Positions 1-55,411 of a DNA stretch of 64,000 bases are shown here, in pieces; position 1 is the first letter of the stretch, and every line of letters begins with the position of its first letter. The position numbers and the translations under genes were made by a program. The stretch is from Blasia pusilla. Lineage: Eukaryota. Under the pieces are notes generated by a model. That model saw nothing but the letters and a program-made list of their open reading frames with translations, did no database searches and was not told the origin of the DNA. The stretch spans positions 22,754,001 to 22,818,000 of the forward strand of contig CM114271.1 in NCBI GenBank assembly GCA_050084515.1. Direction: 5' to 3'.

Positions 1-65
1 CTACTACTATGAATCATTGGAGCCGAACTGAACCGAAATAATCAAATACAAACTTCTGCACGAAT

Positions 66-345
66 CCGAACCCCCGAACACTTAATCCACGTACCACACC
101 TCTCGTTCGGGTTAATCCTCTATCGTGAAGCGATCATAATCCTCCATTAGCAACCAAATCCTCCAATCCGAACCCCGAACACTTAATCCCTCCACACCTC
201 TCGTTCGGGTTAATCCTCTATCGTGAAGCGATCATAATCCTCCATTAGCAACAAATCCTCCAATCGAACCCGAACACTTAATCCACGTACCACACCTCTC
301 GTTCGGGTTAATCCTCCATTAGCGATTGTAATTCTCCATTAGCGA
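66..345. repeat. About 100-bp tandem repeat, roughly 2.5 copies with small deletions
   Basis: CCGAACACTTAATCC...CACACCTCTCGTTCGGGTTAATCCTC...TAATCCTCCATTAGC recurs from about 66, 168 and 264. Each unit has an internal CCCGAAC/GTTCGGG inverted pair. Confidence 0.85.
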
Positions 346-1227
346 TGATAATGAAGCAAATGTCGGGTTTCTCTGTTGCTCCACGACGTTCATTACGGCT
401 AATCGACTGACGTTTAGGGCTAATCCACTTTTGCCGGATGGAATCCATTTTAACTCCGTCCGATGGCAGGGAACGGACGTTTTGAAGTCCGTTCCCTAAA
501 GTCCGTCCCATGTTTCACGGAGTTGGTGAAGCCGTCCGCCTAGGTCGCTGGCGTCGGCCCAGCCGATATCCGCCAGCCAGCCACCGTTTTCCCGATCAAC
601 AGCGCGCCTTCACCGAGGCGCCTGCAGATAGGGCCTAGCCTAGGCTTCGCTTTATTGCGAAGCCGCGGCAAAGCATGGGCTTCGGGGAGAGGGACCCCGG
701 GCGGCGGGCCCCGGCACTCTAGGAACACCCAGAGTCTGGATCGAGATTGGTCCATGTACAGGGGTCTCTGTTTGTACATAAAGAGTTGAACTTTGCGTGT
801 GTCCGAAACGAAAAGCTATAATCCAAATAGTCCCATGCCCCGTTGCCTCGTTCTTGTGCTGATCAGCACGTTCTTCTTACAGCCAAAAAGTAAGGAGTAG
901 TACAGGAGTACTAGGGCGGTATCGAATCGGATCACAACGTGAATTGCGGATACCTTTGGTGACCATCTCCACAAAGTCCTCCGGACTTCCGAAAAAGGAG
1001 GCCAGGTTAATCGTACGGTGAGGAGATAGTAAAGACAGTAACCACCTCACTTGTCTAGGGACGCTACGCCCGTCGAACTTGCGAACACCCTCGACAGAAA
1101 TTCCGAATCGATCCAACATTTCAATCGACCCCGGAGTTTTATGCCCTGATTAAATTTCAGCATGCGATTCTACACACAAACTTACTTCTGAATTCCACAT
1201 GAGGAAGGCATTTGTTTGCCAAGCAGA

Positions 1228-1809
1228 TTACGGTATCCTGAAGCTGAATACGGTATCCTTCACTCCGAAGTAGGATCCATCGGTAGGGAAGAATGGAATG
1301 AAGAAGTACAAGCTCTTGCCACCGGCTTGGTTGAAAATGTCGTTCCAGGCCTCAAGTGAGCTTCTGTAATTGTAGAACTGCCAGTAGCCATCATCATTGC
1401 CGAGCCACGAGGTGAAGAATGACTTGCCTCGGTACGTGAGCTGATTCGGATGTGTTCTATACCTGGTCAGCATCGTTACGATCTCTGAAGGCGATAGTCG
1501 AAGACCCGTGCCATCCTCGACATGAATGTCGGCCGAGAAGAAAAGTTTGAAACCGGTGCCCAGCTCGCTCGCAGCCTGATAAATTTTATCTGCCAGCGTC
1601 TGTCTCCACACATTCGTGTTCAGTGCGAATGCGTCGATACCCTTGCTTTGGGCGAGCTGAATTTCCTGCTTGTAAGTATCGATTGAATCCTGCGCATAGA
1701 TGAGGTAGTGAGCGAACACCAACTTCGGGGTCTGAGCAGCTGCGAATGGCGCTACTGAGCTGAGAATTGCGGCACAAAGCCAAATGGATGAGGCGACGAA
1801 ACTCTCCAT
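1228..1809 (-). CDS. Secreted glycoside hydrolase family 71 (alpha-1,3-glucanase/mutanase-like), N-terminal part only; truncated or continued by splicing outside the window
   Basis: Signal-peptide-like N-terminus (MESFVASSIWLCAAILSSVAPFAAA), then GH71-type motifs KLVFAHYL, EIQLAQSKGIDAFALN, FKLFFSAD, HPNQLTYRGKSFFTSWLG, FFIPFF. The C-terminal motifs (VSPWF, WNDYGES) were not found in the window. Confidence 0.85.
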   Translation of the reverse strand: MESFVASSIWLCAAILSSVAPFAAAQTPKLVFAHYLIYAQDSIDTYKQEIQLAQSKGIDAFALNTNVWRQTLADKIYQAASELGTGFKLFFSADIHVEDGTGLRLSPSEIVTMLTRYRTHPNQLTYRGKSFFTSWLGNDDGYWQFYNYRSSLEAWNDIFNQAGGKSLYFFIPFFPTDGSYFGVKDTVFSFRIP

Positions 1810-3591
1810 GACTGCTTCTCTTACTCTGCTTCTTCAGTTTCGCACAATGAGAGTTCCCAGGCTCCGTGCGCTATAAGCGTTCCTTAACCGGGTCCCACAC
1901 GCACGACAGAAGTTTCATAGGATACAGAAAGCCAACTTTATGCTTATACAGCAGACGCTTGTTGGAAGTAAACTTCGACTTCAACCGTAGTTAGTTCCGG
2001 ATATTGTTTCTACAGTCCAAATTCTTCCCTAGTATTAAGGCACACTGACACCACCGGTCTCCCTCTCGGGTCCTTTGGTACATGGTGTAAAGTCATCCGA
2101 TTTTGTTCTTATCCGTGACTTTTTGAATTCTTAACTTGACCTTTTGAGATTAGTTTATGTTAAATTGAGGAGCGTTTCTGAAACGGGGACACGTCTCTTT
2201 TCTTGAGTTTAAGAATTTAGTACACTTTCTTTACTTTGTTAACGGGACATGTATATCTATATTATCGGATTTTGCAAACACATATTTGCATAACACATGG
2301 TTAAAAAAAGATATTTTCCGTATGCAGCATCAATAGTCTATCCACTCCGGTGCACGTGCTATATACCAGTGTGTATAATTATAGTCTCTTCACTCCCGTG
2401 CGTCGCACCTGCCGCATATTGGTGGTATAATTACAAGACCAGCATCTATGAACTAGTTACGCCGATCCTAACTAGTTTATAATACTAATAGTTTATTTTA
2501 TAATACTAATAATTTGTTGTCCCATGGATGGAAATGAAAATGTGAAAGCATGGGACAAGAACGATTTTTTAAAGTTTGATATCCAATTGAAAATAGTAAA
2601 TATATATAGATACGTTTGAACCTTACTGATAAGTAAATTATAATTTCCAATTTATTTAAATTCACTTATTCATTTGGAGAATTTTAACTATTCCTTTATT
2701 TTCTAATCCCCATCTCTCATTTAAGAAGAAGAAAATCACACTCATTTTAATCCGTATTTTTCCAAAGAAAAGTTGTTTGTTTTTCTTTCCAGTCTATCTT
2801 AAACATTTTAAACTTAGCAAATAAAATATTCTCATTATTTTGAAGATGTATCTTGTCCCAAAATTCTCCTACTATCCTCCTCATTTTCTTCCCCAAAATA
2901 TTATTTAACTTTCCATTGAAACTAAATTTGAAAATTGGAGGTTTTAACTCTCTTTTTCTACCTCAACCTTTTTTTAAAATCTGGTTTTATAAATCATGGG
3001 AAAAGACGATGAACATGAATGAGACTTACTAACGTTTCATGAAAAAATTATCTAAACTAATTTTTTTTAATAAAAATAAATCTAATTACTAAAATCTTAT
3101 GCTTACTCTACCTTTCAGCTGGTATAGGGTAAAATTGAAAAGAAATTCAAGACACTTGAGGTGGCCTTGATTCAACATGAGCTAACTAAGTATCAAAAAA
3201 AATATGATAACTACTAACTAGTATTTAGAGCCCCTAACCATCCATCGGAATATTTAGATGGAGATGAAAAAACCCATAAGTAACGGACCAAATACAATTC
3301 TAAAACTGAGAAATTTTTTTAAAGAATCCTATATTTGATAAAATATTTTCAGCGGTGGAACTATGATTTGAAGATTTCTTGGTTGGATATTCCCATAAAT
3401 ATTGTAGAAGATGAGGAAAAATATTGGAATGAGGTAGGCTAGGGAAATTTGAAATAAGATTAGAATTGTTCTCAACTATTTTACAATTTATGAGGAGTTT
3501 TTTCTTTTTCTGAATTAAAAAGTATGCCCTATGTTTTAATCCATTCTCTACAATGTCATATAATATCGGAAAGGAAAATATTAGAAATAAC

Positions 3592-6704: not shown

Positions 6705-9700
6705 TTTTATTATAAAATAAATCTTAGAAGAGGACAAGGAAAGGTAATAACGTCTCAAAAGATGCATAAAGAAAATGGTAACCAACCAACAACTCAACGA
6801 GCTACACAATTGATCGCCTGAAACAAATCTGACAAGAACACGAGTGGTTAGTTAGACGTGAATGGACGACGGGGCAAGCGATCCCCTACCACCTCCGCAC
6901 GACGTATCAATGCCAATGCTTGTGCATGCTGTAAGGCCATTGAGATGCATTGCCGAAAATAAGTAGTAACTACAGAGAGAGAAGGACTACGGGAAGGGGC
7001 AAGGTGATGATTCTTGAGGGAGTGATGAGCACATGTTTTCAGGAAAGTATCAAAAGACACATGTAAATGACCGAATACTTCCACTGCAAAAGGAATAAAT
7101 CCATCAGTCGCATGTCTCACAACATAACTTAACTCCTTGATTCTTGCTGCAGCTTCGGCCGCCAAACTTTTGGTATGTGCGGCTCGACACACCAAGTCAA
7201 AACGTGTTGGATCAGCAACCACATCACCTAGTGTCTGGAATCCACCTCGAGATATAACAAGATCCACTCTCCGACCGAGGTTGCTTGTGTAGTTGAAGGT
7301 AGGACATGGAGTTGCTCTTGCCCAACGGTGTATCCTGCAGTACAAGCCACCGATGCTACCGCCTCTCTAATGACATCATGTGTGGCCGTTTGTTCTCCAC
7401 CATATGCACATCGGAGAATATGGATACCCTTCGTATCAATGGGATCCCCGCATACACAATTCGGCACACCTAAGAGAGAAGGATGAGGAAGTCCAAGACG
7501 TAACCGCAAAGCTGTCGAGAATATACTTCGAGGAAGATGAAATGGAAGAATAAGAGGATTTGCAGCGCTTCCGCTTCGGTACCCGCACATGAACGCAGAC
7601 GAGCTCGATGAGCGTCATAGGATGCCTCAGAGAGAATGCTAGAAAAGTTCATTTGATGCAGATTCTCGGAGATAAGCTCTTGAAGTCGATTAAGCCCTTC
7701 TGTAATCAATTGACTGAAAGGGGGTAGAATTGCTTGTGTAGCAAGAGGAAGAAGAGCTCGTGTAGATCTCAATTGTTGTTAAAATAACAACTCTCCCTCC
7801 TCTACATGGGCGATATGATCCATCAAGATAGATGTATCTCCTTGGAGAAACCTTGAAGCCATAATCAGTGCTACCAACGCCCAACTCCCCAGGAAGGCTG
7901 CGGGAGCAGATGCGACTGCGGAGGACAGTCCCACCCCTCCAAAATAAATAGGCAAGATAGCTTGTCGTGAAGCAAAGAAAACATCCTCTCCCTCAAAGGT
8001 ATTCGGGCCAAGAAGTTGACCAAAAGTTCCCAAGATAGAAGCGTCAAAAAAGGCCAACTGATATAAGAACCTTGAAGTGGGAGGACAAGTGCGAAGAAGG
8101 TAGGAAGGACGTCGTAGAAAACATTGGGAGAGAATCCCATAAGCCACTTGGGGATCCCCTAGATGAGGTAACAAATGAAGCCATTCCACGTCTTTCAAAA
8201 GGGTCTCATCCAAGAACTTTGAGACATAGTCGATGAAGCCAATTGGGACCCCAAGAACCCTAACCCCTTCAATGTAGATGGGAAAATCATGAGTAGGTGG
8301 GGTGAATGTTGAGGGAAGGCATCATGGAGACCATACTCCACATTTACTAGGTTGGACTTTAAGGTTTAAGAAAGAGAGTCGCTCCACGAAATGGGTATAA
8401 GCAGGAACCACTTCAGAAGGAGGACCTATAATGTGAGTATCATGAGCAATAGAAGGGAAAAGACAAGATGGAAATGCTTGCGTTGATGCTCGAAGGGCAC
8501 GAAAGTGGGAAATGGAAAAGAGTGGGCCATCCATGGGATCACCTTGACGTGTGCCACAAGCCGATTGTAGAATACTATATTCCCTGGAAGTAGCATGATA
8601 GGAATAGATAATGGGCATATCATAGGCATAGAAGGAGCAAACAAATGAAATGAGGCTCGCAAGTTGTCCTCCTGCACAACGTAACTCCTTAAAGATGGCC
8701 GCACGAGAAACTGAATTGAATGCGTTAGCCACATCGACTTGAATTGCTACCCAATCTGGATGAATATCAAGAGTGGAGCAAATCCCATGCACCATAGCCT
8801 CACAACCTCCAGGATTTGCCACTCCAAATTGATGAGGAAATAAGTGGGCACTAAAGTGAGGACGAAATGGCAAGCATAGGGATCGACTAACCAAGCGGTA
8901 TAAAACCTCTCCAATAGCCAGAAGGCGCACACTTGAAGGAGGCTTATCCATAGCCAACAAACGACAAGCCTCTAAGAGTCTAGAGATAGAGAATGGGAGA
9001 TGACATGCCGCCATATGTGCACACACCTTATATAGAGAGACAAAGCCACTTGCTGAATCTGCCGGGATAAAGCAATCGCGGAGATACTCAAAACCATCCC
9101 TGATAGCCCGCTTGCTGATAAGCAAGGAGTATGTAGAAAAGCCCTTGTGAAAACCTCCAAGTCAAGGTCCATTGTATAGTCTTCCACAAAAGATGGAGCA
9201 TCGCCACTTGAAGGAGTGTGAAGAGCTTCTAAGAGAGCCATTGTTTCCGTACTTGGAACCGCCCGAGAAAGAGGACCCAATGCTCGAGCTGCACGTGAAA
9301 ACTCACCAACCTGCCCCAAAAGTAGACTTTGTTGAAGGCGTTGTTGTATTGATGGCCTCCAATTATTGGCATATTGAGAGGGATGAGCCGCAGCTAAGGT
9401 CTCTGCTCGAAGTACGTGCTCATTTTGAGGATTCTCCCAAACCCCAGACATAAAGCGTTGAATACGTAAGGAGGTTTCACGATGACCCGTCGCACCACCC
9501 CTTGGAGGGAGGACCAAAACCCATTGTGGGAAGAGTAATAGGAGATACCAAGCATTGATATCTGTGGGATCATGCGCTAACCTTTCTAATGGGAAAAGCA
9601 AAGCTTGTTGGGTGATGGGGCGAAGAGCAATAGGAATGCGAGTGTAGAGTCTAGGACGAGGAAGACCTAGATGGAAAGAGCGAAGGAGATCAATTTGTCT

Positions 9701-10700
9701 TAACCAAGTCCAAGTAGTTGTTGTGGGGAGTGCAGTAGGAGGTGGTATCGGGTTAGGGATTGAAGGCCCATGTATGGATCGACACTACCGCTAATGTCTT
9801 TTGATCTCATTAGGAGCAAACTCCTTACCACAAGGTATGCAACGAACCTTTAGTACAAATGGAGAAGTATAAGGGTTACAAGGAGAGGGGGTGGGAGGTG
9901 CAAGAGCTGGTGATGGACGACGATGAGGGGGTAAGTAGGTTGGGGAAGGAGGAGGAGGAAGAGGGGATATTGGGTAGAATAGATGGGAGTTGGAAGCAAG
10001 GGCATAGATGAGATATGTGGGAATGGCAAAATAGAAGGATTCGGTAATAATGGATCAAGATTTGGCTCAATAGGACAAGACAAAGAGGGGAGAAGAAGAG
10101 AATCCGGAAGAAATGCAGCAAGTGTAATGGGTGTAAGAGCATCTGGAGGAAAATGGCGAGATCTACGATGAGGAGGTGAGCCAGGGGGAGATGTTACGAC
10201 TCTAGGAGGGCGTTTAAAACCAGATAAGCGAGTAGATGGAGAATCCAACTCCATCTCTGATGACATAGAAACAAAGGTAGGCAAGTCATCGAAGACAAGG
10301 GAAGACATATGAAACATGGTTTGGAGAAAGCATGAGGATAACGAGAAAAACAAAAGTAGTGGAATCCGTCCAAAAGAAATTTAGATGGAGAGAAGAAGAT
10401 TAGGCAATACCGAATTTATGATTGAAAGGTACTATAAGAAAAATATAACAAGCAATTGAAAAGGAAAAGTGATCTATATGGTATCGGAAGAGGTGGATCA
10501 AGAATATGAATTTCTAATGTCCTTAAAGAGATGGCAAACGTATGTAGGGGCGAAACAGTAAGGTAAGGAGTTGAAAGAACAAGGAAGATTTTTGGGAGGA
10601 TTTGACCTAAAACAAAACCGTACACAAAAATAGGCGCCTACGGAGAAGGAAGAACAACTAGAAAACCTACTTGATATGAAAAGAACGAGCTCGTCAAGAC
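6705..10700 (-). mobile_element. Non-LTR retrotransposon with restriction-like endonuclease (CRE/Cnl1/MoTeR-like clade), frameshifted
   Basis: N-terminal zinc finger CIPCGKEFAPNEIKRH*R*C (about 9780-9848). RT motifs VRLLAIGEVLYRL, HQFGVANPGGCE, DVANAFNSVSR, GTRQGDP, FPSIAHD (catalytic DD altered). Then CCHC CVCG..IDTKGIHILRC, HDVIR and RLE RRVD..TLGDVV..KELSY..FIPFAVEVFG. 3-prime end TTTATTTTATAATAAAA next to a short (TA)n. 5-prime boundary approximate. Confidence 0.9.
6848..9848 (-). pseudogene. ZnF-RT-CCHC-RLE polyprotein of the CRE-like element, split over several frames
   Basis: ORF pieces 8972-9601, 8322-9125, 7779-8213, 7470-7772, 7228-7590 and 6848-7345 are colinear parts of one protein. 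Confidence 0.88.
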
Positions 10701-28359: not shown

Positions 28360-29386
28360 AGGGCCTGCCCATAACCCTTGGCCCGCACGGCCCGCAAGGA
28401 GCCCGTGCACGACCTCGCCCCCTAGCCCACATGCGGGCTCAAAGGCCCGCAAGCAGTCGGCACATGGGCTCTCAAGCCCGTAGACAAGCTCATCCGCCCG
28501 CATGCAAGCCCACTCCCTAGACCGCACGTGGACTCTAGGGCCCATGCAGAGCCTGCACTACGGGCCTTGGATTCCACGTGCAGGCTCTAGGGCCCGCATA
28601 CGAGCCCGTGCCCGTAAGCAGCCCGCACCCTAACGCGCAATGAGCCCGCGTGAGGGCTCGGCGACCTGCGACATAGCCCGAAGGCGGGCTCCAAGGTCCG
28701 CAACTAGCCTGTGCGCGGGCTCAAGGCCCGCATGCAAGCCCGCGCCGGGCTCCCATGCCCAAAATCAGCCCGCGACCTAGCTTGCAGCGGGCTCCAAGAC
28801 CCGCAATGAGCCCATGCACGGGCTTGGCGGCCCGTATGCGATCCCGTGCCCTAGGCTGCACCCTAGCCCGCAACAAATGCATGACCTAACCCGTAGGTGG
28901 GCTCCAAGGCTTGCAACAAGCCCGCGCACGGGCTTGGCAACCCACAAGCAGCCCGGACATGGGTTTCAGGGCCCACACCCTAGCCCGCATGCTGGCTCCA
29001 AGGCCCGCACCTTGCCCGCGCACGGGCTCGACCATCTGCAAGCAGCCCAGACACGGGCTTCAAGGCCTGTACCCTAGCCCGCATGCAGGCTCCAAGGCCC
29101 GCAAATAGCCCGCGCGCAGGCTTGGCGGCCCACAAGCATCCCGGATGCGGGCTTCACGGCCCGCACCCTAGCCCGCACGTTGCACTTGCTTGTAGCCCGC
29201 GTCACAACTTAGGCCCGCACCCTGGCCCACACCCTTCATCGGAGCCCGTATCGATGGCCTGCAAGTGGAGCCCGCGCAATCGATCTGGGCGCCACAACCT
29301 ATGCTCGCACCCGGTGTTCCATGTCCGTGGTCATGAGTGGACATGTCCGTCCCATGGATGGACTTGTCCGTTTCCGTGCAACCTTG
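28360..29386. mobile_element. hAT-type MITE copy (left end lost) with about 900 bp of AGCCCGC/GCGGGCT palindromic array
   Basis: Right end GGACTTGTCCGTTTCCGTGCAACCTTG at 29386, abutting the PHD exon. Confidence 0.8.
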
Positions 29387-29742
29387 CACACAAAGCCCCG
29401 ATTCCTCACTCTTTGCAAAAGTTCCTTGTATACCACACTTGGCACACTTGGCCGTCTTCTTCACACAGTCCGGGCAAAACCAGCTCCCTTCGTGGTTAGG
29501 TGGAAGATCTATCCTAGGACAAGCATTTTCTATAGCCCTGGCTGATCTTGCAGTTGCGTGGAAATGTCTAGCACATGGCCCGTCGCAAACAACCAACTCC
29601 TCCCCATCCTCACAGATTGCACAAATGTGGGTTTCCTTTTGATGAATCTGAAGTAAATTGTATGGCGCTAAACAACTCATCTTGGGGGCTTTCTTGGCCT
29701 GTAGCTTTGGACGCGCCATCCTTGGACTCTCCTGAAAGTTAT
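29387..29742 (-). pseudogene. PHD-finger exon, EDM2/NSD-type composite PHD, truncated by the MITE
   Basis: CAICEDGEELVVCDGPCARHFHAT...C...WFCPDCVKKTAKCAKCG: C4HC3 ligands plus the start of a second finger. CAG splice acceptor on the minus strand at 29743-29745. Confidence 0.8.
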
Positions 29743-32739
29743 CTGTATACAAAACAAAACAAAAGTCAATTGTAGTGCAAGACGAAGCTCATGGAAGAAA
29801 GAGGTGAGGGAAAGATTACATCACTAGTAATGAATTGTGTGTGAATAATAGTATCTTTCAAAGAGGAAAAATCTTGGTCTCTAGTGTATACATTTGTACG
29901 ATGATAATACGACGAAGCACCTCAAAGTGTGGGAACGTATGAATGACCAAGTACTAGTACGCAGTCTGTGACAATATCATCAAGAAATAATCACGACAAA
30001 CACCCAAAATTAGTTATTCTGCACACACAATTTACATCGTCCTATTTACTATTTTATCGTTATGTCATATGTATCTTGGGGCAGACTACTTAAATTCTTA
30101 TTTGTGGTGTAACCACGAACTGTCTTCGGATTTTCGGATTGTTTGCCATTTAATTTTTGGTGTTTGAGAGGTGAACAATAATGACACTCAAAAATATGAA
30201 CACCATATTCATAACAACACCTTGCACTATCGATTCATCATGCATTTTATTATGTCATTCCCATACTTGTCCAAATATTAACATCACATTTGTTTTGAGT
30301 TCATAATTATAGTGTCCAATTTATGAGTGTGTTTGGACTAAGCCTCTTTTGAGTTTGTCTACAAAATTACTCTAGGGAAAATGTAGGAGGAAGAAAGTCG
30401 AAAAAAATCTCTCTCCTTTGAGGGTGAAACCACTAGGCTCATCATGCAATGCAAGGGACCTATCCTGTGATGGCCATGCACAATCACCACTACACCATGG
30501 GCAGAATGTGTGATCACGCAGAATGTTGCCATCACATAATGTGCGCCCGGTTAGGCATGTTGTGCTAGGCCTCGTGTCAATGTTGGTAGTACAAAGGAAC
30601 TCAATTGAGGACAAAAGTTCTCAATGGAGAAAAACATATTACCCTCAATGCATATCGTGCTAATGGCTCCGATCAGGGACAACTCTCTTGAGTTGCACAG
30701 ATGGGGCTCGAATGGAAGCGCCCATCACCAGAAGAGTGAATCCAAAAGCCTACATTGTGGCAAATGTGAAGTACCATAGTGTCGACAACACCCAACCGAA
30801 TGTAACATCTGATAGACTCTAGCTTCCCATCATACTCACCCCATATCAACCATCTTAAAGAAAAGTAACATGTACGAGGCGTGCTAACTTCATAGACACA
30901 AAATACTCCAACGTCATGATCGTGCACAATAGCCCTGTTGTAGACAATGTCTGAAGGGAGTGTTGCAATGTGGTGCATGGTAGCCACATGACCTTGCTAA
31001 ATAACAAGGGTAGATTACTAAACATTAAAGAACTTCAATGCTGACAACACTTTCACAATTCAGACAGGGCTAACAAAAGCTTTTAAATGTAGACGCACCA
31101 ATCTGTCCATATGTGCACTGCCCCTCTATCTCTTCTCTGTCCACTCCTCTTCCCCAACTTCTTATATAACATGTCCACTTGTTAAATCCTGCACAAACGT
31201 AAGATATCATGGCTCTGAAAAATGAGAGTGTCTCCCTTCTCTAATATGGTACCTTCTGCGCTTCATCTTCTCTCTATATCGATCCTAGTCTAAAGTCGTG
31301 TCCAAGTAGGGCAGCAGGTCAAAGGCAGAAAGGAAGAAGGTGGGAGTGAAGAGTGAAGGAAGGAAATACCCAATCAAAACACTAAAGAGCCATGGGCGGC
31401 CTTGGCGCAGTAGGTCAAAGGAGATGAGGTGAGAAGGAAGGCAGGAGTAAGAGACAAGAGACAAGAGCCCAATACTCAATCAGTGACAAAAAATTTTAAA
31501 TCAAAAAAGGGCCTTAGGCAGCCTTGGCGCATCAGATTGAAGGCGAGAGTGAGAGAGAAGCTCAAAGCACACTTGGTTGATTCGAGCTAATTTCAAGTAA
31601 ATCAGCTCCAGCAAGATTTAGAAAAGAGTAGTTCTTGAGAAATCAATTCCACTCATGCTGCTAAAACCGAACAAACCTTTCATGAGCCTAGGGGAACATC
31701 ATAGAGAAGCGCATTCATCTGCAACAGTAGGTATAACACCCTTTTAAACCACTTGAACGGTTCCGATCTGCCTTTTCCATTTCCAATTTTGATTTAAAAA
31801 TACCAATCACCCGAACCATCTTGTATTTTTTACTCCCTTGAAAAAACTCACCTTGCCTCTAATCCTAATTTCTCTGGTAATATCGATATTTTTTATTTAA
31901 TATTCTCCAATTAATATTTTCTACCACACATGTGTGAGAAAATGACTCACATTACTAAATGAGTCACGGGATATGACTTGTCTTTGTACACTTCTGTCGC
32001 ATACCTCTTGATTAGACAGACTTTCTTCTTCTTGCCTCATTTTTTTGTATATGTAGCTACTACTAAGACAAACCCACATATTAGAGAATCGGAAACTCGA
32101 ATAAAAGTAGCTACAAAGATATTTTGGACTATAAGACAAAAGGTTGTAGTACCTAGGTACGAAAAGAAATCAATTCATGTCCATAAGAACCAGAGGCCCT
32201 TTCAATTCCTACTTCATCATCTGTTCATGACTTCCATAGTCATATTTTGTGGAAATGCCACGTAGGAGCCCAAAGACCATTTTTAGGGCAGTCATGCAAT
32301 ACTCCTTGGCTAGTCTTTCATGACTCCTCTAAAAATCCATGACTAAGAATTCATGATTTGCGACTAGTACTTGATTTTTAATCAGATTAAAATTTTTAAT
32401 TATCCATTTTAATTCCACGTCATACAATTTCCTCAACCCATGACTCATTACATGACTCAAATAATTTATTTATGACTCTATGAGTCCTCAAGACTGGTTG
32501 AGTCATGACATATTCATGCTTGTTTGAAATAGAGTCATTTTAATTATGTAGTCATGAGGCGTTGAGGCACCAAAATGCTTATTTTCTTCGAGTGAATATA
32601 GTTGCAATTGAAGATCTTGGTTGATATGTGGAAAAAACAAATAAATGGAGGAGGGAAAACATTCTTCAACCTATGAGATGGGAGAATGAAGACATAAGAC
32701 CATTGCGTGCATCTATAGGTTACCTTTAGAAGTCTTCTA

Positions 32740-44548: not shown

Positions 44549-45850
44549 CATGTGTTAGCTAATATTGCTAGAATAAAAGGTGTGAGTGCTTCTATTTGTG
44601 AGAGTGTTCTCTCTTGAAAATACTATCAAGACTAAAAGTCGTAATAGATTGATGAAAAAATATTTGGATAATTTACTCAAGATTTCTTTAGAGGTGCTAA
44701 TATCTACTTATGAGGCTCTCTTGGTTGAAGCAATAACACTTTGGAAAATTTTTGCATAATTTAAAGAGGTGTATTCCAATTTAGAGAAATATGTCTATAG
44801 GTGACATTCCAATAGAAGAAGTAAATGAGCAGTGGAATATAGAGATTCATCAATATTTTTTTAGCTAGCACTATTTCCCGACAACTTACCGAAAGACTTT
44901 AACAGAAAAGCACCAAATGAACTTAAGAAATTTCTAAAATTTATAAAAATCATAAATATTTCCTCTTCCTACCGGAAACTAAACGTGATTTTTTCACTAC
45001 GATTTGGCTGTTGGAAATATCGGGTTCCAAGAGAAAAAAAAACTCCCATATAATATTTATTTATATTATTATTGGAGAATTATTTCTTAATTGATTTGTA
45101 AACACTTCTATGGTAACCCGGAAAAAAAGTTTCCTCTTTATAGAATAAATTAGCCCCCCGTTGCACACCGGTAATTCTTATCAAATTGAATCATCAAAAC
45201 AACTCTTAAAAAAAACTATAGAAAGGTTTAGTATGTTCTTTTAGTACTTTCTTAAGGTGTGAAGTGTGCACATGGAGGCTTATTTTCTAGCAGTCAGCGC
45301 AGATCTTTTCGCGATGAGTATTGAAAGCCGCAAATTTTAGGAAAGAATTTTACGACGAGCTATTGTGTTTAAGAGTGGGGACTGGCTCAAAGCCGTGGGG
45401 TTGCAGTAACATTGTTCGTTCGGTGCAGGGAAATTCATGGACTGCAAAACTTGCAGACTGTGACTGTCATGAATCACTCCTTGCAGGGCTGACTCCTATT
45501 CGCTCCCTCCTATTCACTCATTGCTACCCCCTGTGAAATTTCAGTTCGCGCCGTAGAAGCAAATTACAACTGGCCGCAGGCGTTGGTGGTCAGAGTCTTC
45601 AATCCTGCATACACCACCCTTCTAACGGACAACGAAAACAGGTTTTCCGCGTGCGCTGCAGCAGCAACATTACTCTTCTGCCCTAGTCATCATGCTGTGG
45701 CCACAAACTTTTCGGCTGGTTTCGCCAACTTTCGGGGAAGGAAGGCGGGCTGGGGTTTCCATTGTCTCCACCGCTCTGAAGTTGGACTGTGAGACCCTCC
45801 CTGAGCAAAAATGGAATGCTCGGCTGTTCATTTGGACAAGTGCGAGCTCA

Positions 45851-46295
45851 AGTGGTGGCCCAAGGGCGAATGCTCCGCCGCCGCCGCCGGACACACATCT
45901 ACAGTCGACTACACGAGGGACACATCTTCATCCCCCTGGCCATAGAGATGTATGGGGCTATGGGGGAGAGGTTCGACTCGTTCCTTACGGACTGCGCCCA
46001 TCATCTCCACTCGAGAAATGGGTTGTCCTTAGCTACTGCGATTCTGTATTGTAGGCAGCGGGTCTCCATAGCGTTGCAGCGTGCCCAGGCTAATGGGATT
46101 TTGTGGCGGGCTCAGGCTGTGGGAGACGCCGGCGCTAGAGGCCCACTTAGTAGTAGTCATAGCTCTCTTGTTGTTGCTGATATTGTCTCTGCTGTTGGTG
46201 AGTTTCGTCTTTAGAGGGGGGAATGCCCCCTTCTTCCTTTTCTGGTCCTGTTGTGGCCTTGCCTTCAGGTTTTATGGAAGTGCATCTTCTCTTCA
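45851..46295 (+). mobile_element. 5-prime-truncated CRE-like retroelement (RLE C-terminus plus 3-prime UTR), a different subfamily from the 6.7-10.7 kb copy
   Basis: FIPLAIEMYG..FDSFLTDCAHHL..YCRQRVSIALQRAQA..RAQAVGD aligns with FIPFAVEVFG..FDTFLKTCAHHS..YFRQCISMALQHAQA..RAEVVGD. Confidence 0.88.
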
Positions 46296-52200: not shown

Positions 52201-55200
52201 GCCACGTTCTCGCAGTTTGGTCAATCAGTAACGTTCACTGTAAATCAACGAGTTGTCATCTTCTCGGGCGACAATGTTGAATTGCTTCCGCATTGTAGGA
52301 TTTCGGATCATTGTATTCCATCATGCCTTCTTTGACAGTATTCTCACTCTAATGATTATAAGGGTTGAACTTGCTTTATCGGCTTGATCGCCTGATCTGG
52401 TACAGTGCTGTGGCTTGTGGATGGTGTGCAGAACGTGGTATCGTTTTCACAGCAGGTGCAGAACTTGAAGGAGTACAAGAGCAAGCTAATCTCCTTGGTT
52501 GGTGACAGCCGCGCGGCAGAAATATTGGGGGAAGCCTTATTCCTAATAAGTACAGGAACCAACGACTACATACTCAACTACTACTTGAATCCCGCCTTGC
52601 AGGCTCAGTACAACATCTCACAGTTCGAAGACCTGCTCATAACAACGGCGCTCCCAAATCTGCAGGTGAGAAGATGTGGTGCTGCACATGATGGAGTGCA
52701 CATTAATTTGGCCAATATTTCACTTAAGTGCTCGCTTACATGCTTGTTTTCGCGGGTAGTCTAAGATTCATAATCCCTAAAACTATTATCGATCTTCCTC
52801 CTGGCTTCCTTCTACTGCCTTCAGAATCTCCCTAGAAACCTCCATGGAAATTCAGAAGATTTTAATAATGTAGGTCTCATGAACCTACTTCTAAACCTAC
52901 CTTAATGTGTCTTTGTGTTTCCTGTCTTCAATTTCACCGCTATTCACTGTCTATACCGTCGACGCTGTCCATGCCTGTCTTTCTCTAAGTTGAATACCTG
53001 AATCATCCAGTTGATTCCTTCGTCTCTCCTCTTTAATTTTATCCGTGCTTGTTGACACTGCTGCAGTAAAGCGTCAGAACGAATTTCCTGCAGTTGGCAG
53101 GTACTGCCTTTGTGATAAATCCGGGTCCAACTACAACATTTGAGTAGAGATTGTCAGATTTCATGAGCAGCAGTAAGCCAATTCAGTAGTGAATTGGCGT
53201 TGCAACTATTCTTGATTTAAAACAAGACAGTCTCAACTTGAGTGATTTTGATCAATTGAAACATCGCAGGAAGTTTACAACATTGGAGCACGAAAGATAG
53301 TGCTAAGTTCGCTGCCCGCCATGGGCTGTCTGCCAGCAGCCATCTCCGTGCTCGGCTCGGGTGGGGACGACTGCGTTGCTTCTGTTAACGAGGTAGCGCG
53401 GAATTTCGACGCGACCTTGAAGCGCATGGTCCCGACCTTGAATCTCGAAGGCGCCATCCTGCTGGATCTCGACGGCTACAGTCTTCTGTCCGAAGTGTTT
53501 GAGAACCCTTCGGAGTATGGTAATGCGCTCACCATTACCCTTTCGGTTTTAACGTCCGTTACGTCCTTTGGATTGCCCATTTTGCCCGTCTCTGTGATGA
53601 TTCGTGCATGAAACTTATGTGAAACGTCTTCATGCTACGTGGCATGGAGTTGCCATCACAAGTCTAGCTGGATTGGGTACGAACCCTTTCTTCTTACTGC
53701 AGGTGAGTGAGGACAAAGCTAAAATTTGGGGCCAGGGTCTGTGACGACACGTCACTTCAGGGCATGCTTGCAGTGTGTGACACGTCAGTTTATCGTGTGC
53801 TGACGTGGCGAAGGTGACTCAGATTTTGAGTTGTTTTGGGGCTGACGGGTACAGAGAATTTCGTTGCACTCATCCTGAATTAATACCTCGAATATAAAAC
53901 GAAGTTCCTTAATTTTAAGGTCTTTTCAGTCTTTCGTTACGGCTAATTTCTAATTGAAATAGAAATTATGAAATGACTGTGCAGTGAGTATTTGCTTGGT
54001 AGGGCCCTGCGGCAATTTAGTTGTTTGCTAGAAGCCCTAAGATTGAATGACACTAGATTTATTTCTTTTAATTCCGTGTCATTTCGGTTTGAAGGGTGCT
54101 AGCCGATAACAAAACTCTCTCAAGTTTGTATCGAGAAAATATTTCCATGATGTAAAAAAAGGAAATTAAACAAAAATCTTCTCAAAGGTACTTTTTATGG
54201 TAACACGTAGAGACATAAACTTTAGGCATCACATCCATAAAAGCATCCATGACACGAGTCTACATATTTTCTCTAAGAAAAACACTAGGAAGGACATCTT
54301 TCTTTGAAGAGAATAAAATTTTAATTTTTCACAATCTTATTTATCAATAAATATATCAAATGAATCTTCAATTGGACATAATTGAAATGTGTTTTGAATT
54401 GTAGAATTATACCTCTTCCCATCACTATTGACTCTAAGCTTCACACTTTGTGTTCTCTTATGGCCATGAGATTAACCTTTGTCATAGGATTGTAGAAATT
54501 ATTTATTTACTTACGTCTCTGATGTGGCATGACACATAAGAGACGATGAATCTCAAGAGAGTGTTTTTATGATTAACAAAGTGAGGAATTGATTTATATT
54601 GTTGTTGGCCTTATGGTTGAAAGGTCATCTAATTTTATATTTCTTTTCAATGTAAATTTGATTTTTTTACTTATATTAGTATTCTTCTTTCATTATTTTT
54701 TTCTTATGTAGTATTTTATTTAGAGAAAATTTGAATGTAAGATTTCTCATCACACTAATATTCTCGGATAAGATAAAACTGTCTATGCGTGTATATGTGA
54801 GATATATATTTGTAAATATAAAATTTGAATTTACTATATGTAAGTTTCAAGCTTCTTATTGTGAAATTTGTTTTAAATTATTAATCGAAGAGTCGGCAGA
54901 ATTAGTTTTTGATGCCAATGCTTTTATTTTCTCTATTGTATTTTTTTTTAATAATAAATTGGACTTTTTAAACATTTTATCACATTTGACGGAATATGTT
55001 TCGTCACTAATGGGAGCACTAATCGAGTGTTTTAGCTGCCCTTCTGGCTATGAGGGAGGCAAGGTGAAAAGACACGGTCATGGCCGCCTCACTAAATGGC
55101 ATCCACCCAACGTGCGAAGGGAGACCATGAATCGAAGGCTCTCTCTCTCTCATCTGCCTTTCTCAAATAAAATTTACTTTAGACCTAACCTTGCGATAAT

Positions 55201-55411
55201 TGTTGTGCTTGAAGGATTCCAAGAGACTCGAAAAGCCTGCTGCGGGTCGGGCAAGATCGAAGTGGCCGTTCTGTGCAACGCGGCGAGCCTGGGGACGTGC
55301 AAGGACGCCTCCAAATTCGTGTTCTTCGACAGCTTCCACCCGACCCAAGCTTTCTACGAGCAGGTGGCGAGGGCAGTCATTCCCGACATCATCCGCCGGA
55401 TCTCACCATAG
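49273..55411 (+). CDS. GDSL esterase/lipase (SGNH hydrolase), 5 exons: 49273-49540, 50004-50134, 52432-52665, 53270-53519, 55215-55411
   Basis: Hydrophobic N-terminal leader; blocks ILGDSTVDVG, GRFSNG, GANFASSGSG, STGTNDY, GARK, ACCGSG, FFDSFHPT (Ser/Asp/His intact). All four introns are GT-AG with consistent phases and the usual plant GELP layout. Confidence 0.96.
51060..51550. repeat. Diverged direct repeat in GDSL intron 2
   Basis: CACTCTGTATGGTCAGCACTC and CATCCTA(G/C)TCTCTAG occur at about 51140-51245 and 51450-51547. Confidence 0.8.

What the first reader, a model, noticed from the sequence alone, without database searches (positions are those of the whole stretch)
1228..1809. Fungal/bacterial-type GH71 alpha-1,3-glucanase in a plant chromosome
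Seen: a signal peptide plus GH71 N-terminal motifs over 193 uninterrupted codons, on the same contig as a canonical plant GDSL gene and plant TEs. Established: GH71 enzymes cleave alpha-1,3-glucan, a fungal wall polymer that masks chitin and beta-glucan from plant immunity, and the family is typical of fungi and bacteria rather than flowering plants. Inference: a horizontally acquired secreted enzyme for antifungal defence or symbiont wall remodelling.
Basis: partly seen in the sequence, partly recalled or inferred. Interest (0 to 1): 0.72.

Follow-up and report, generated by a model that had tools for sequence, protein, structure and literature searches.

The report
Broken copy of plant alpha-glucanase gene
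This is the front 40% of a liverwort-type gene for an enzyme that cuts a fungal cell-wall sugar; it lacks the catalytic end, sits beside an intact sister gene, and belongs to an old gene family of non-flowering plants that is already in print but little studied.

Summary
The 193-codon ORF is real GH71 (PF03659, E 1.9e-25) but covers only model positions 1-150 of 375. An intact, intronless 485-aa paralog lies about 10 kb upstream. The window copy keeps five of eight barrel strands and lacks the catalytic DxxE pair and the beta-sandwich, so it is very unlikely to be an active enzyme.

The break is real: contigs of two runs span it, and one run also holds an in-frame GH71 continuation, so an intact allele probably exists. 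dN/dS of 0.09 against the paralog points to a recent break. In one RNA run about 96% of reads were paralog-type.

Both genes group with liverwort sequences inside one land-plant clade. This is neither contamination nor a recent transfer. Plant GH71, absent from angiosperms, is already reported (PMC10006428); the donor is unresolved.

The best lead lies outside the window: plant GH71 is fused to receptor kinases with a catalytic Asp-to-Asn change (Psilotum) and to TIR-NB-ARC (Cryptomeria).

The parts
1248..1809 (-). GH71-homologous 5' part, codons 1-187: barrel strands 1-5, no catalytic DxxE pair, no beta-sandwich
   Evidence: PF03659 model positions 1-150; 85% DNA identity to the paralog over 1257-1827; strand map from the paralog model; break at 1248 from a contig loose end
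1735..1809 (-). Signal-peptide-like N-terminus, codons 1-25
   Evidence: hydropathy only; same layout in the paralog and Marchantia homologue
1228..1247 (-). Unrelated read-through after the break, ending in TAA
   Evidence: no similarity to the paralog
1221..1259 (.). Imperfect 19-nt tandem duplication across the break (1221-1239 and 1241-1259, 89% alike)
   Evidence: 0 of 200 shuffles and 0 of 20 paralog windows have such a repeat
1183..1197 (.). 15-nt inverted near-copy (87%) of coding bases 1294-1308; possible templated filler
   Evidence: 0 of 200 shuffles and 0 of 20 paralog windows
685..1227 (.). Single-copy DNA joined to the broken gene; no GH71 remnant; possible 3' UTR of a truncated transcript
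   Evidence: 1 match in the genome for 690-1260; no real similarity to GH71 proteins or the paralog's 3' side; covered from 799 by contigs of run X2
340..684 (.). Right end of a 7.3-kb Mutator-like element that runs out of the window (left end at G000:C1:22747372); no target-site duplication
   Evidence: 45 genomic matches; MULE transposase remnant, E 1.7e-08; 8-bp duplications in 5 of 7 other copies, none here
1810..1900 (-). 5' UTR and promoter region, loosely homologous to the paralog's; TATA-like box is weaker (TTATAG at 1876-1871)
   Evidence: pairwise alignment; sense RNA depth 6.2 at 1792-1849 and 0.7 at 1850-1907

Best explanation
The ORF is a recently 3'-deleted, loss-of-function allele of the second of two neighbouring GH71 genes in a liverwort-type genome. 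Shown: an old duplication (dS 0.53) made two tail-to-tail, intronless copies that stayed under purifying selection; in this assembly the second copy stops being GH71 at codon 187 and has lost the catalytic Asp/Glu pair and the sandwich domain; an in-frame continuation exists in another data set of the same organism. Inferred: a double-strand break, perhaps linked to the adjacent Mutator-like element, was repaired by end joining with templated filler. The intact paralog (G000:C1:22743897-22745353) most likely works as other GH71 enzymes do: it is secreted and hydrolyses alpha-1,3-glucan by inversion, with Asp305 as base and Glu308 as acid. Its likely substrate is the alpha-1,3-glucan coat of fungi, and cutting it would unmask chitin and beta-glucan (inferred, about 60%). 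The family entered the plant lineage once, at or before the origin of land plants, and was lost in angiosperms.
For: Truncation. Catalytic pair: DxxE, Asp265 as base, in AnGH71C, and constructs without the sandwich were insoluble (PMC12394665, passages); paralog W303-N304-D305-W306-x-E308 is invariant in 20 plant rows and aligns with Agn1 D237. Fold: pLDDT 81.6, best matches are the GH71 structures, E 7e-31. Break real: contigs 1023-1277 (X1) and 1068-1312 (X2) span it with no mismatch. Intact form: X1's loose end at 1248 is colinear and in frame with the paralog, 25 of 30 bases alike, reading AKFQSTVDG; best match elsewhere in 154 kb was 20 of 30. Selection: dN/dS 0.093 over codons 23-184, Fisher p 6e-17. 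Junction repeats beyond chance. Phylogeny: 39 plant-type rows of 122 form one clade, SH-aLRT 99; 22 of 97 in a second tree, 99. [quoted passage not shown]
Against: The intact form rests on one 30-letter loose-end consensus from one contig of one run, which may be a mixed sample. The frame has no other stop or frameshift, and the excess of amino-acid changes on the window branch is small (8 against 4, 4 unclear), so nothing shows decay directly. Contigs of run X2 (RNA status is the tool's guess) cover the junction and the DNA behind it, so the truncated form may be transcribed. The MULE end lies 563 bases from the break, and 2 of 7 other copies also lack a duplication, so its role is unproven. 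No enzyme assay or infection data were available. The trees are quick searches without bootstrap or root, on top hits only.
Confidence: 0.8

Rival explanations
1. The fragment is a third, partial duplicate, and an intact second gene exists in the same plants but is missing or collapsed in this assembly.
For: Run X1 holds both the truncated junction and the intact continuation.
Against: No intact second copy in G000 by family or protein search (2 candidates each). In X1 the shared part has depth 8.85, the paralog 7.22 and the truncated branch 5.08, which looks like two haplotypes at one locus; the tool warns that contig depth is no copy number, so this is a weak hint.
Confidence: 0.1
2. The truncated product is functional in its own right, for example a secreted glucan-binding decoy or an inhibitor of the full enzyme.
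For: Open frame, signal-like N-terminus, low dN/dS; junction present in at least two samples, with coverage behind it in the RNA-like run X2.
Against: Low dN/dS is explained by the time before the break. Five of eight barrel strands are unlikely to fold, and GH71 constructs lacking only the sandwich were insoluble (PMC12394665). In raw RNA run X16 no sense read lies between 690 and 1211, although window-type sense depth is about 5 upstream.
Confidence: 0.06
3. The locus is contaminant DNA or a chimeric join, or a recent fungal or bacterial transfer into this species.
For: Both copies are intronless and the family is mostly microbial.
Against: Closest relatives are liverwort genes at 61-64% against about 30% for microbes; nested in the plant clade; flanked by the genome's own MULE family; the junction is spanned in two studies, one of which may be the assembly's source; 622 RNA reads laid on the stretch.
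Confidence: 0.02
4. Plant GH71 was inherited vertically from an algal or older eukaryotic ancestor and not gained by transfer.
For: The plant clade is not nested inside fungi or bacteria in either tree; two unnamed proteins (P0193, P0195) are its sisters at SH-aLRT 99; protist homologues exist (Acrasis, Planoprotostelium).
Against: 0 GH71 in Klebsormidium, Chara and Penium; no named algal protein among the hits shown. This concerns the family's origin and is compatible with the main explanation of the fragment.
Confidence: 0.2

Closest known systems
GH71 alpha-1,3-glucanases: S. pombe Agn1 (PDB 8YFH, D237N mutant 9M6L) and A. nidulans AnGH71C (9FNF-9FNH; PMC12394665)
   Same: The paralog has the same barrel plus sandwich fold (TM 0.83-0.84 by target) and the DxxE pair in the same place.
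   Different: About 25% identity; the paralog has a Cys-rich insert after strand 7 that Agn1 lacks; the window copy lacks strands 6-8, the dyad and the sandwich.
Land-plant GH71 clade: Marchantia polymorpha MARPO_0066s0042, Riccia fluitans, Ceratodon, Selaginella, Psilotum, Pteridium, Ginkgo, Taxus, Cryptomeria; Torreya GH71 genes of PMC10006428
   Same: Same clade and domain layout; 61-64% identity to liverwort members; reported as present in gymnosperms and earlier lineages, absent in angiosperms, of possible bacterial origin.
   Different: This genome has a local pair, one copy broken, plus an older scrap on C4; M. polymorpha has one gene. My trees do not resolve the donor as bacterial.

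Membership tests
GH71 (window ORF) | PF03659 match above the curated cut-off | tested here: met
   89.9 bits against 34, positions 1-150 of 375
GH71 (window ORF) | Catalytic DxxE pair | tested here: not met
   absent; lies at 305-308 of the paralog, beyond the break at 187
GH71 (window ORF) | Complete (beta/alpha)8 barrel and C-terminal beta-sandwich | tested here: not met
   the fragment covers strands at 30-173; strands at 197, 235, 297 and the sandwich at 363-477 are missing
GH71 (intact paralog P0002) | Full PF03659 match | tested here: met
   E 6.5e-72, positions 1-373 of 375
GH71 (intact paralog P0002) | Catalytic DxxE pair and GH71 fold | tested here: met
   D305/E308; fold matches to 9M6L, 8YFH, 9FNF
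GH71 (intact paralog P0002) | Hydrolysis of alpha-1,3-glucan with inversion | not testable with these tools
   needs an enzyme assay
Secreted protein | Cleavable signal peptide | tested here: inconclusive
   hydrophobic N-terminus and AAA-Q site by eye and hydropathy; no predictor available
Land-plant GH71 clade | Monophyly with other land-plant GH71 | tested here: met
   SH-aLRT 99 in two quick trees; 100 for the clade with Marchantia and Riccia
Horizontally acquired gene | Nested within a donor lineage | tested here: inconclusive
   plants, fungi plus protists, and bacteria form three groups in unrooted trees; no AU test run
Horizontally acquired gene | Absent from algal sister lineages | tested here: inconclusive
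   0 of 3 algae in PMC10006428; two unnamed sister proteins could not be assigned
Mutator-like element (flank) | MULE transposase, long terminal inverted repeats, target-site duplication | tested here: met
   PF10551; inverted ends; 8-bp duplications in 5 of 7 family copies, absent at this copy

The most novel reading that the evidence does not exclude
Non-flowering land plants have an alpha-1,3-glucan surveillance module that angiosperms lost. Secreted GH71 enzymes strip the fungal alpha-glucan coat; catalytically disabled GH71 domains serve as ectodomains of receptor kinases (three Psilotum sequences, all with Asp-to-Asn at the catalytic base, against Asp in 35 of 35 soluble plant rows with the motif); and a GH71 domain replaces the LRR in a conifer TIR-NB-ARC protein, as an integrated decoy would. 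The broken window allele would then be a presence/absence polymorphism at a defence locus.
Probability: 0.3. Interest if true: 0.75.

Novelty: new member of a known kind. Interest (0 to 1): 0.3.

Why it matters
The fragment itself matters little: it is a broken gene copy. The family matters more. Fungal pathogens hide behind alpha-1,3-glucan, which was described as a polymer plants cannot degrade, and a bacterial glucanase made rice resistant to three fungi (PMC3426526, passages). An expressed, intact plant enzyme of this kind in a bryophyte makes it testable whether non-flowering plants remove that coat themselves. The kinase and TIR-NB-ARC fusions in relatives suggest candidate receptors for alpha-1,3-glucan or its fragments. 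My literature searches found no functional study of plant GH71 and no report of these fusions, but the library lacks most subscription journals.

Tried and rejected
Intron after codon 187 with a later exon: no GH71 match in six minus-strand frames at 311-1351, in 685-1256, in 124 kb or genome-wide.

C4 scrap as the displaced 3' half: it covers only residues 324-403, with a stop, at 71% DNA identity against 83-85% for the window copy; judged an older remnant.

Run search: no listed holder is on record as RNA; this is no evidence either way. 4 of 19 listed runs were laid. X13 gave only 11 reads and did not settle the junction.

Donor lineage: two quick trees gave an unresolved three-way split; the mixture-model run of the second tree did not finish and was repeated with LG+G4.

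More TIR-NB-ARC-GH71 fusions: none among 30 hits. More kinase fusions: 3 of 36 hits, all Psilotum.

Literature: 0 papers for GH71+Marchantia+glucanase and for Glyco_hydro_71+receptor-like kinase; nothing relevant; no relevant GH71 paper among the rows listed (top 12-20 of 15 to 816). No GH71 mention in the main text of PMC8792609 or PMC10834447.

Earlier scan notes: nothing by sequence or place, eight unrelated notes by words.

Host species was not determined.

Full report
Observation. The minus-strand frame 1809-1228 encodes 193 residues and matches PF03659 at E 1.9e-25, but only model positions 1-150 of 375. The N-terminus is hydrophobic. Three frames at 52.4-55.4 kb match successive parts of the GDSL model weakly, and an RT frame lies at 8.3-9.2 kb. 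The window is G000:C1:22754001-22818000, on a 68.7-Mb contig of a 390-Mb assembly.

An intact sister gene. Protein and family searches of the genome each scored 2 candidates: this ORF and a second gene at C1:22743897-22745353, about 10 kb upstream on the opposite strand. That gene is intronless, 485 aa, and matches the whole model (E 6.5e-72). Its predicted structure (pLDDT 81.6) has eight barrel strands and a beta-sandwich, and its best fold matches are Agn1 and AnGH71C. It carries W-N-D305-W-I-E308, invariant at D and E in 20 plant rows. In AnGH71C this DxxE pair is required for activity and the Asp is the general base (PMC12394665, passages); the Agn1 D237N structure differs from wild type at this position.

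What the window copy lacks. DNA identity to the paralog is 85% from 1827 to 1257 and then stops. The fragment holds strands 1-5 only. No 3' part was found in 124 kb around it, in 685-1256 or genome-wide, apart from a decayed scrap on C4. Over codons 23-184 dS is 0.53 and dN/dS 0.093, so both copies were conserved for most of the time since duplication. Of 16 amino-acid differences, 8 look window-derived, 4 paralog-derived and 4 unclear.

The break is real and probably polymorphic. I laid 4 of 19 listed runs on 690-2400 at 82% likeness. Contigs from X1 (1023-1277) and X2 (1068-1312), of different samples and studies, span the junction without a mismatch; one may be the assembly's source. X1 also has a contig that leaves the window at 1248. 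Its 30 shown letters are colinear and in frame with the paralog, 25 of 30 alike, against at most 20 of 30 elsewhere in the other stretches scanned. They extend the protein as in the paralog and Marchantia. The simplest reading is an intact allele beside a deleted one; this rests on one contig.

Expression. In raw RNA run X16, 622 reads were laid. At the 40 listed diagnostic sites the median share of window-type letters among sense reads was 4.2% (range 1.5-11.5%), so the paralog dominates. Window-type sense reads reach about 1850, but none lies in 690-1211, so they may come from an intact allele. X2, whose RNA status is a guess but which has an mRNA-sized paralog contig and no cover at 1966-2400, covers 799-1312, which suggests the truncated form can be transcribed.

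How it broke (inferred). The junction carries a 19-nt imperfect tandem repeat and a 15-nt inverted near-copy of nearby coding DNA; neither arose in 200 shuffles or 20 paralog windows. From my own knowledge, such templated filler is typical of end-joining repair. A 7.3-kb Mutator-like element lies between the two genes, ending at window base 684. It lacks the 8-bp target duplication seen in 5 of 7 other copies, which hints at adjacent deletion, but 563 single-copy bases separate it from the break.

Origin. The paralog's best hits are Marchantia and Riccia (61-64%), then gymnosperms (about 50%), moss, lycophytes and ferns (39-45%); fungi and bacteria follow at about 30% (120 of 318 hits shown). 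In a 122-row tree the 39 plant-type rows form one clade (SH-aLRT 99) and both genes group with the liverwort rows (100). A second tree of 97 rows, with chosen hits from the top 150 of 2,768 profile matches, gave the same result and placed two unnamed proteins as sisters of the plant clade. Neither tree nests plants in fungi or bacteria. The host is therefore probably a liverwort (inference from the trees). PMC10006428 (passages and two supplementary rows; files 9 and 13-19 not searched) already reports GH71 in gymnosperms and earlier lineages, absent in angiosperms, of possible bacterial origin. PMC12394665 notes homologues in conifers, mosses and liverworts.

Function of the intact gene (inferred). 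Secretion, inverting hydrolysis of alpha-1,3-glucan and unmasking of fungal walls follow from family knowledge and from PMC3426526 (passages). None of this was tested for a plant GH71 here, and my searches found no such study.

Side lead. Three Psilotum nudum transcript products join GH71, a membrane helix and a Ser/Thr kinase. All three read W-N-N-W-x-E, while 35 of 41 plant rows read D..E and 3 had no motif match. A Cryptomeria japonica protein, with GenBank and RefSeq accessions, joins TIR, NB-ARC and a GH71 domain with an intact dyad. Each fusion type comes from one species, two of the Psilotum sequences are isoforms of one assembly, and no second TIR fusion was found, so artefacts are not excluded. 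I found no paper on them.

Verdict. The ORF is a broken member of a known, ancient land-plant GH71 clade: new member of a known kind, interest 0.3. The immune-module reading of the family has about 30% probability and would be of high interest.

Noticed in passing
P0033, P0151, P0152 (Psilotum nudum, EukProt EP00249 P013344, P019893, P019894): GH71 ectodomain, membrane helix and Ser/Thr kinase; all three have Asn in place of the catalytic Asp. Candidate pseudo-enzyme receptor kinases for alpha-1,3-glucan or its fragments.
   Followed up: partly
P0188 (Cryptomeria japonica SUGI_1117880, XP_057870073.2): TIR, NB-ARC, winged helix, then GH71 with an intact dyad in place of the LRR; possible integrated domain or fused gene model. 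No second example found.
   Followed up: partly
G000:C1:22743897-22745353 (L002:1486-2943, +): Intact, expressed, intronless 485-aa GH71 paralog; the real enzyme candidate of this locus.
   Followed up: yes
G000:C4 about 7553440-7554110 (L012, L024): Decayed third GH71 remnant (residues 324-340 and 347-403, with a stop), split by an inserted GC-rich repeat.
   Followed up: partly
P0193, P0195 (unnamed Logan proteins): Sisters of the land-plant GH71 clade at SH-aLRT 99; could be algal, hornwort or protist, and bear on the family's origin.
   Followed up: partly
window 340-684 and L003:3372-10000: Mutator-like family with 8-bp target duplications; other copies are about 11-12.6 kb, this one 7.3 kb and degenerate; an unassigned 268-aa frame lies inside (L003:5794-6600, no Pfam match).
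   Followed up: partly
window 63-343: Imperfect tandem repeats of about 100 bases inside the MULE end.
   Followed up: no
window 6848-9784 (-) and 45780-46214 (+): Broken non-LTR retroelement: RT (PF00078) followed by Cys/His and endonuclease-like motifs (motif reading recalled, not tested); a related piece near 46 kb.
   Followed up: no
window 52396-55411 (+): Multi-exon GDSL lipase/esterase gene.
   Followed up: partly
window 29168-29788 (-): PHD-finger frame (NSD-like, E 2.7e-05, below cut-off).
   Followed up: no
P0353 (Carpinus fangiana FH972_026558): The only angiosperm-labelled GH71 hit seen, 26% identical to the conifer query like the fungal hits around it; probably fungal contamination of that assembly (my guess, not tested).
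   Followed up: no
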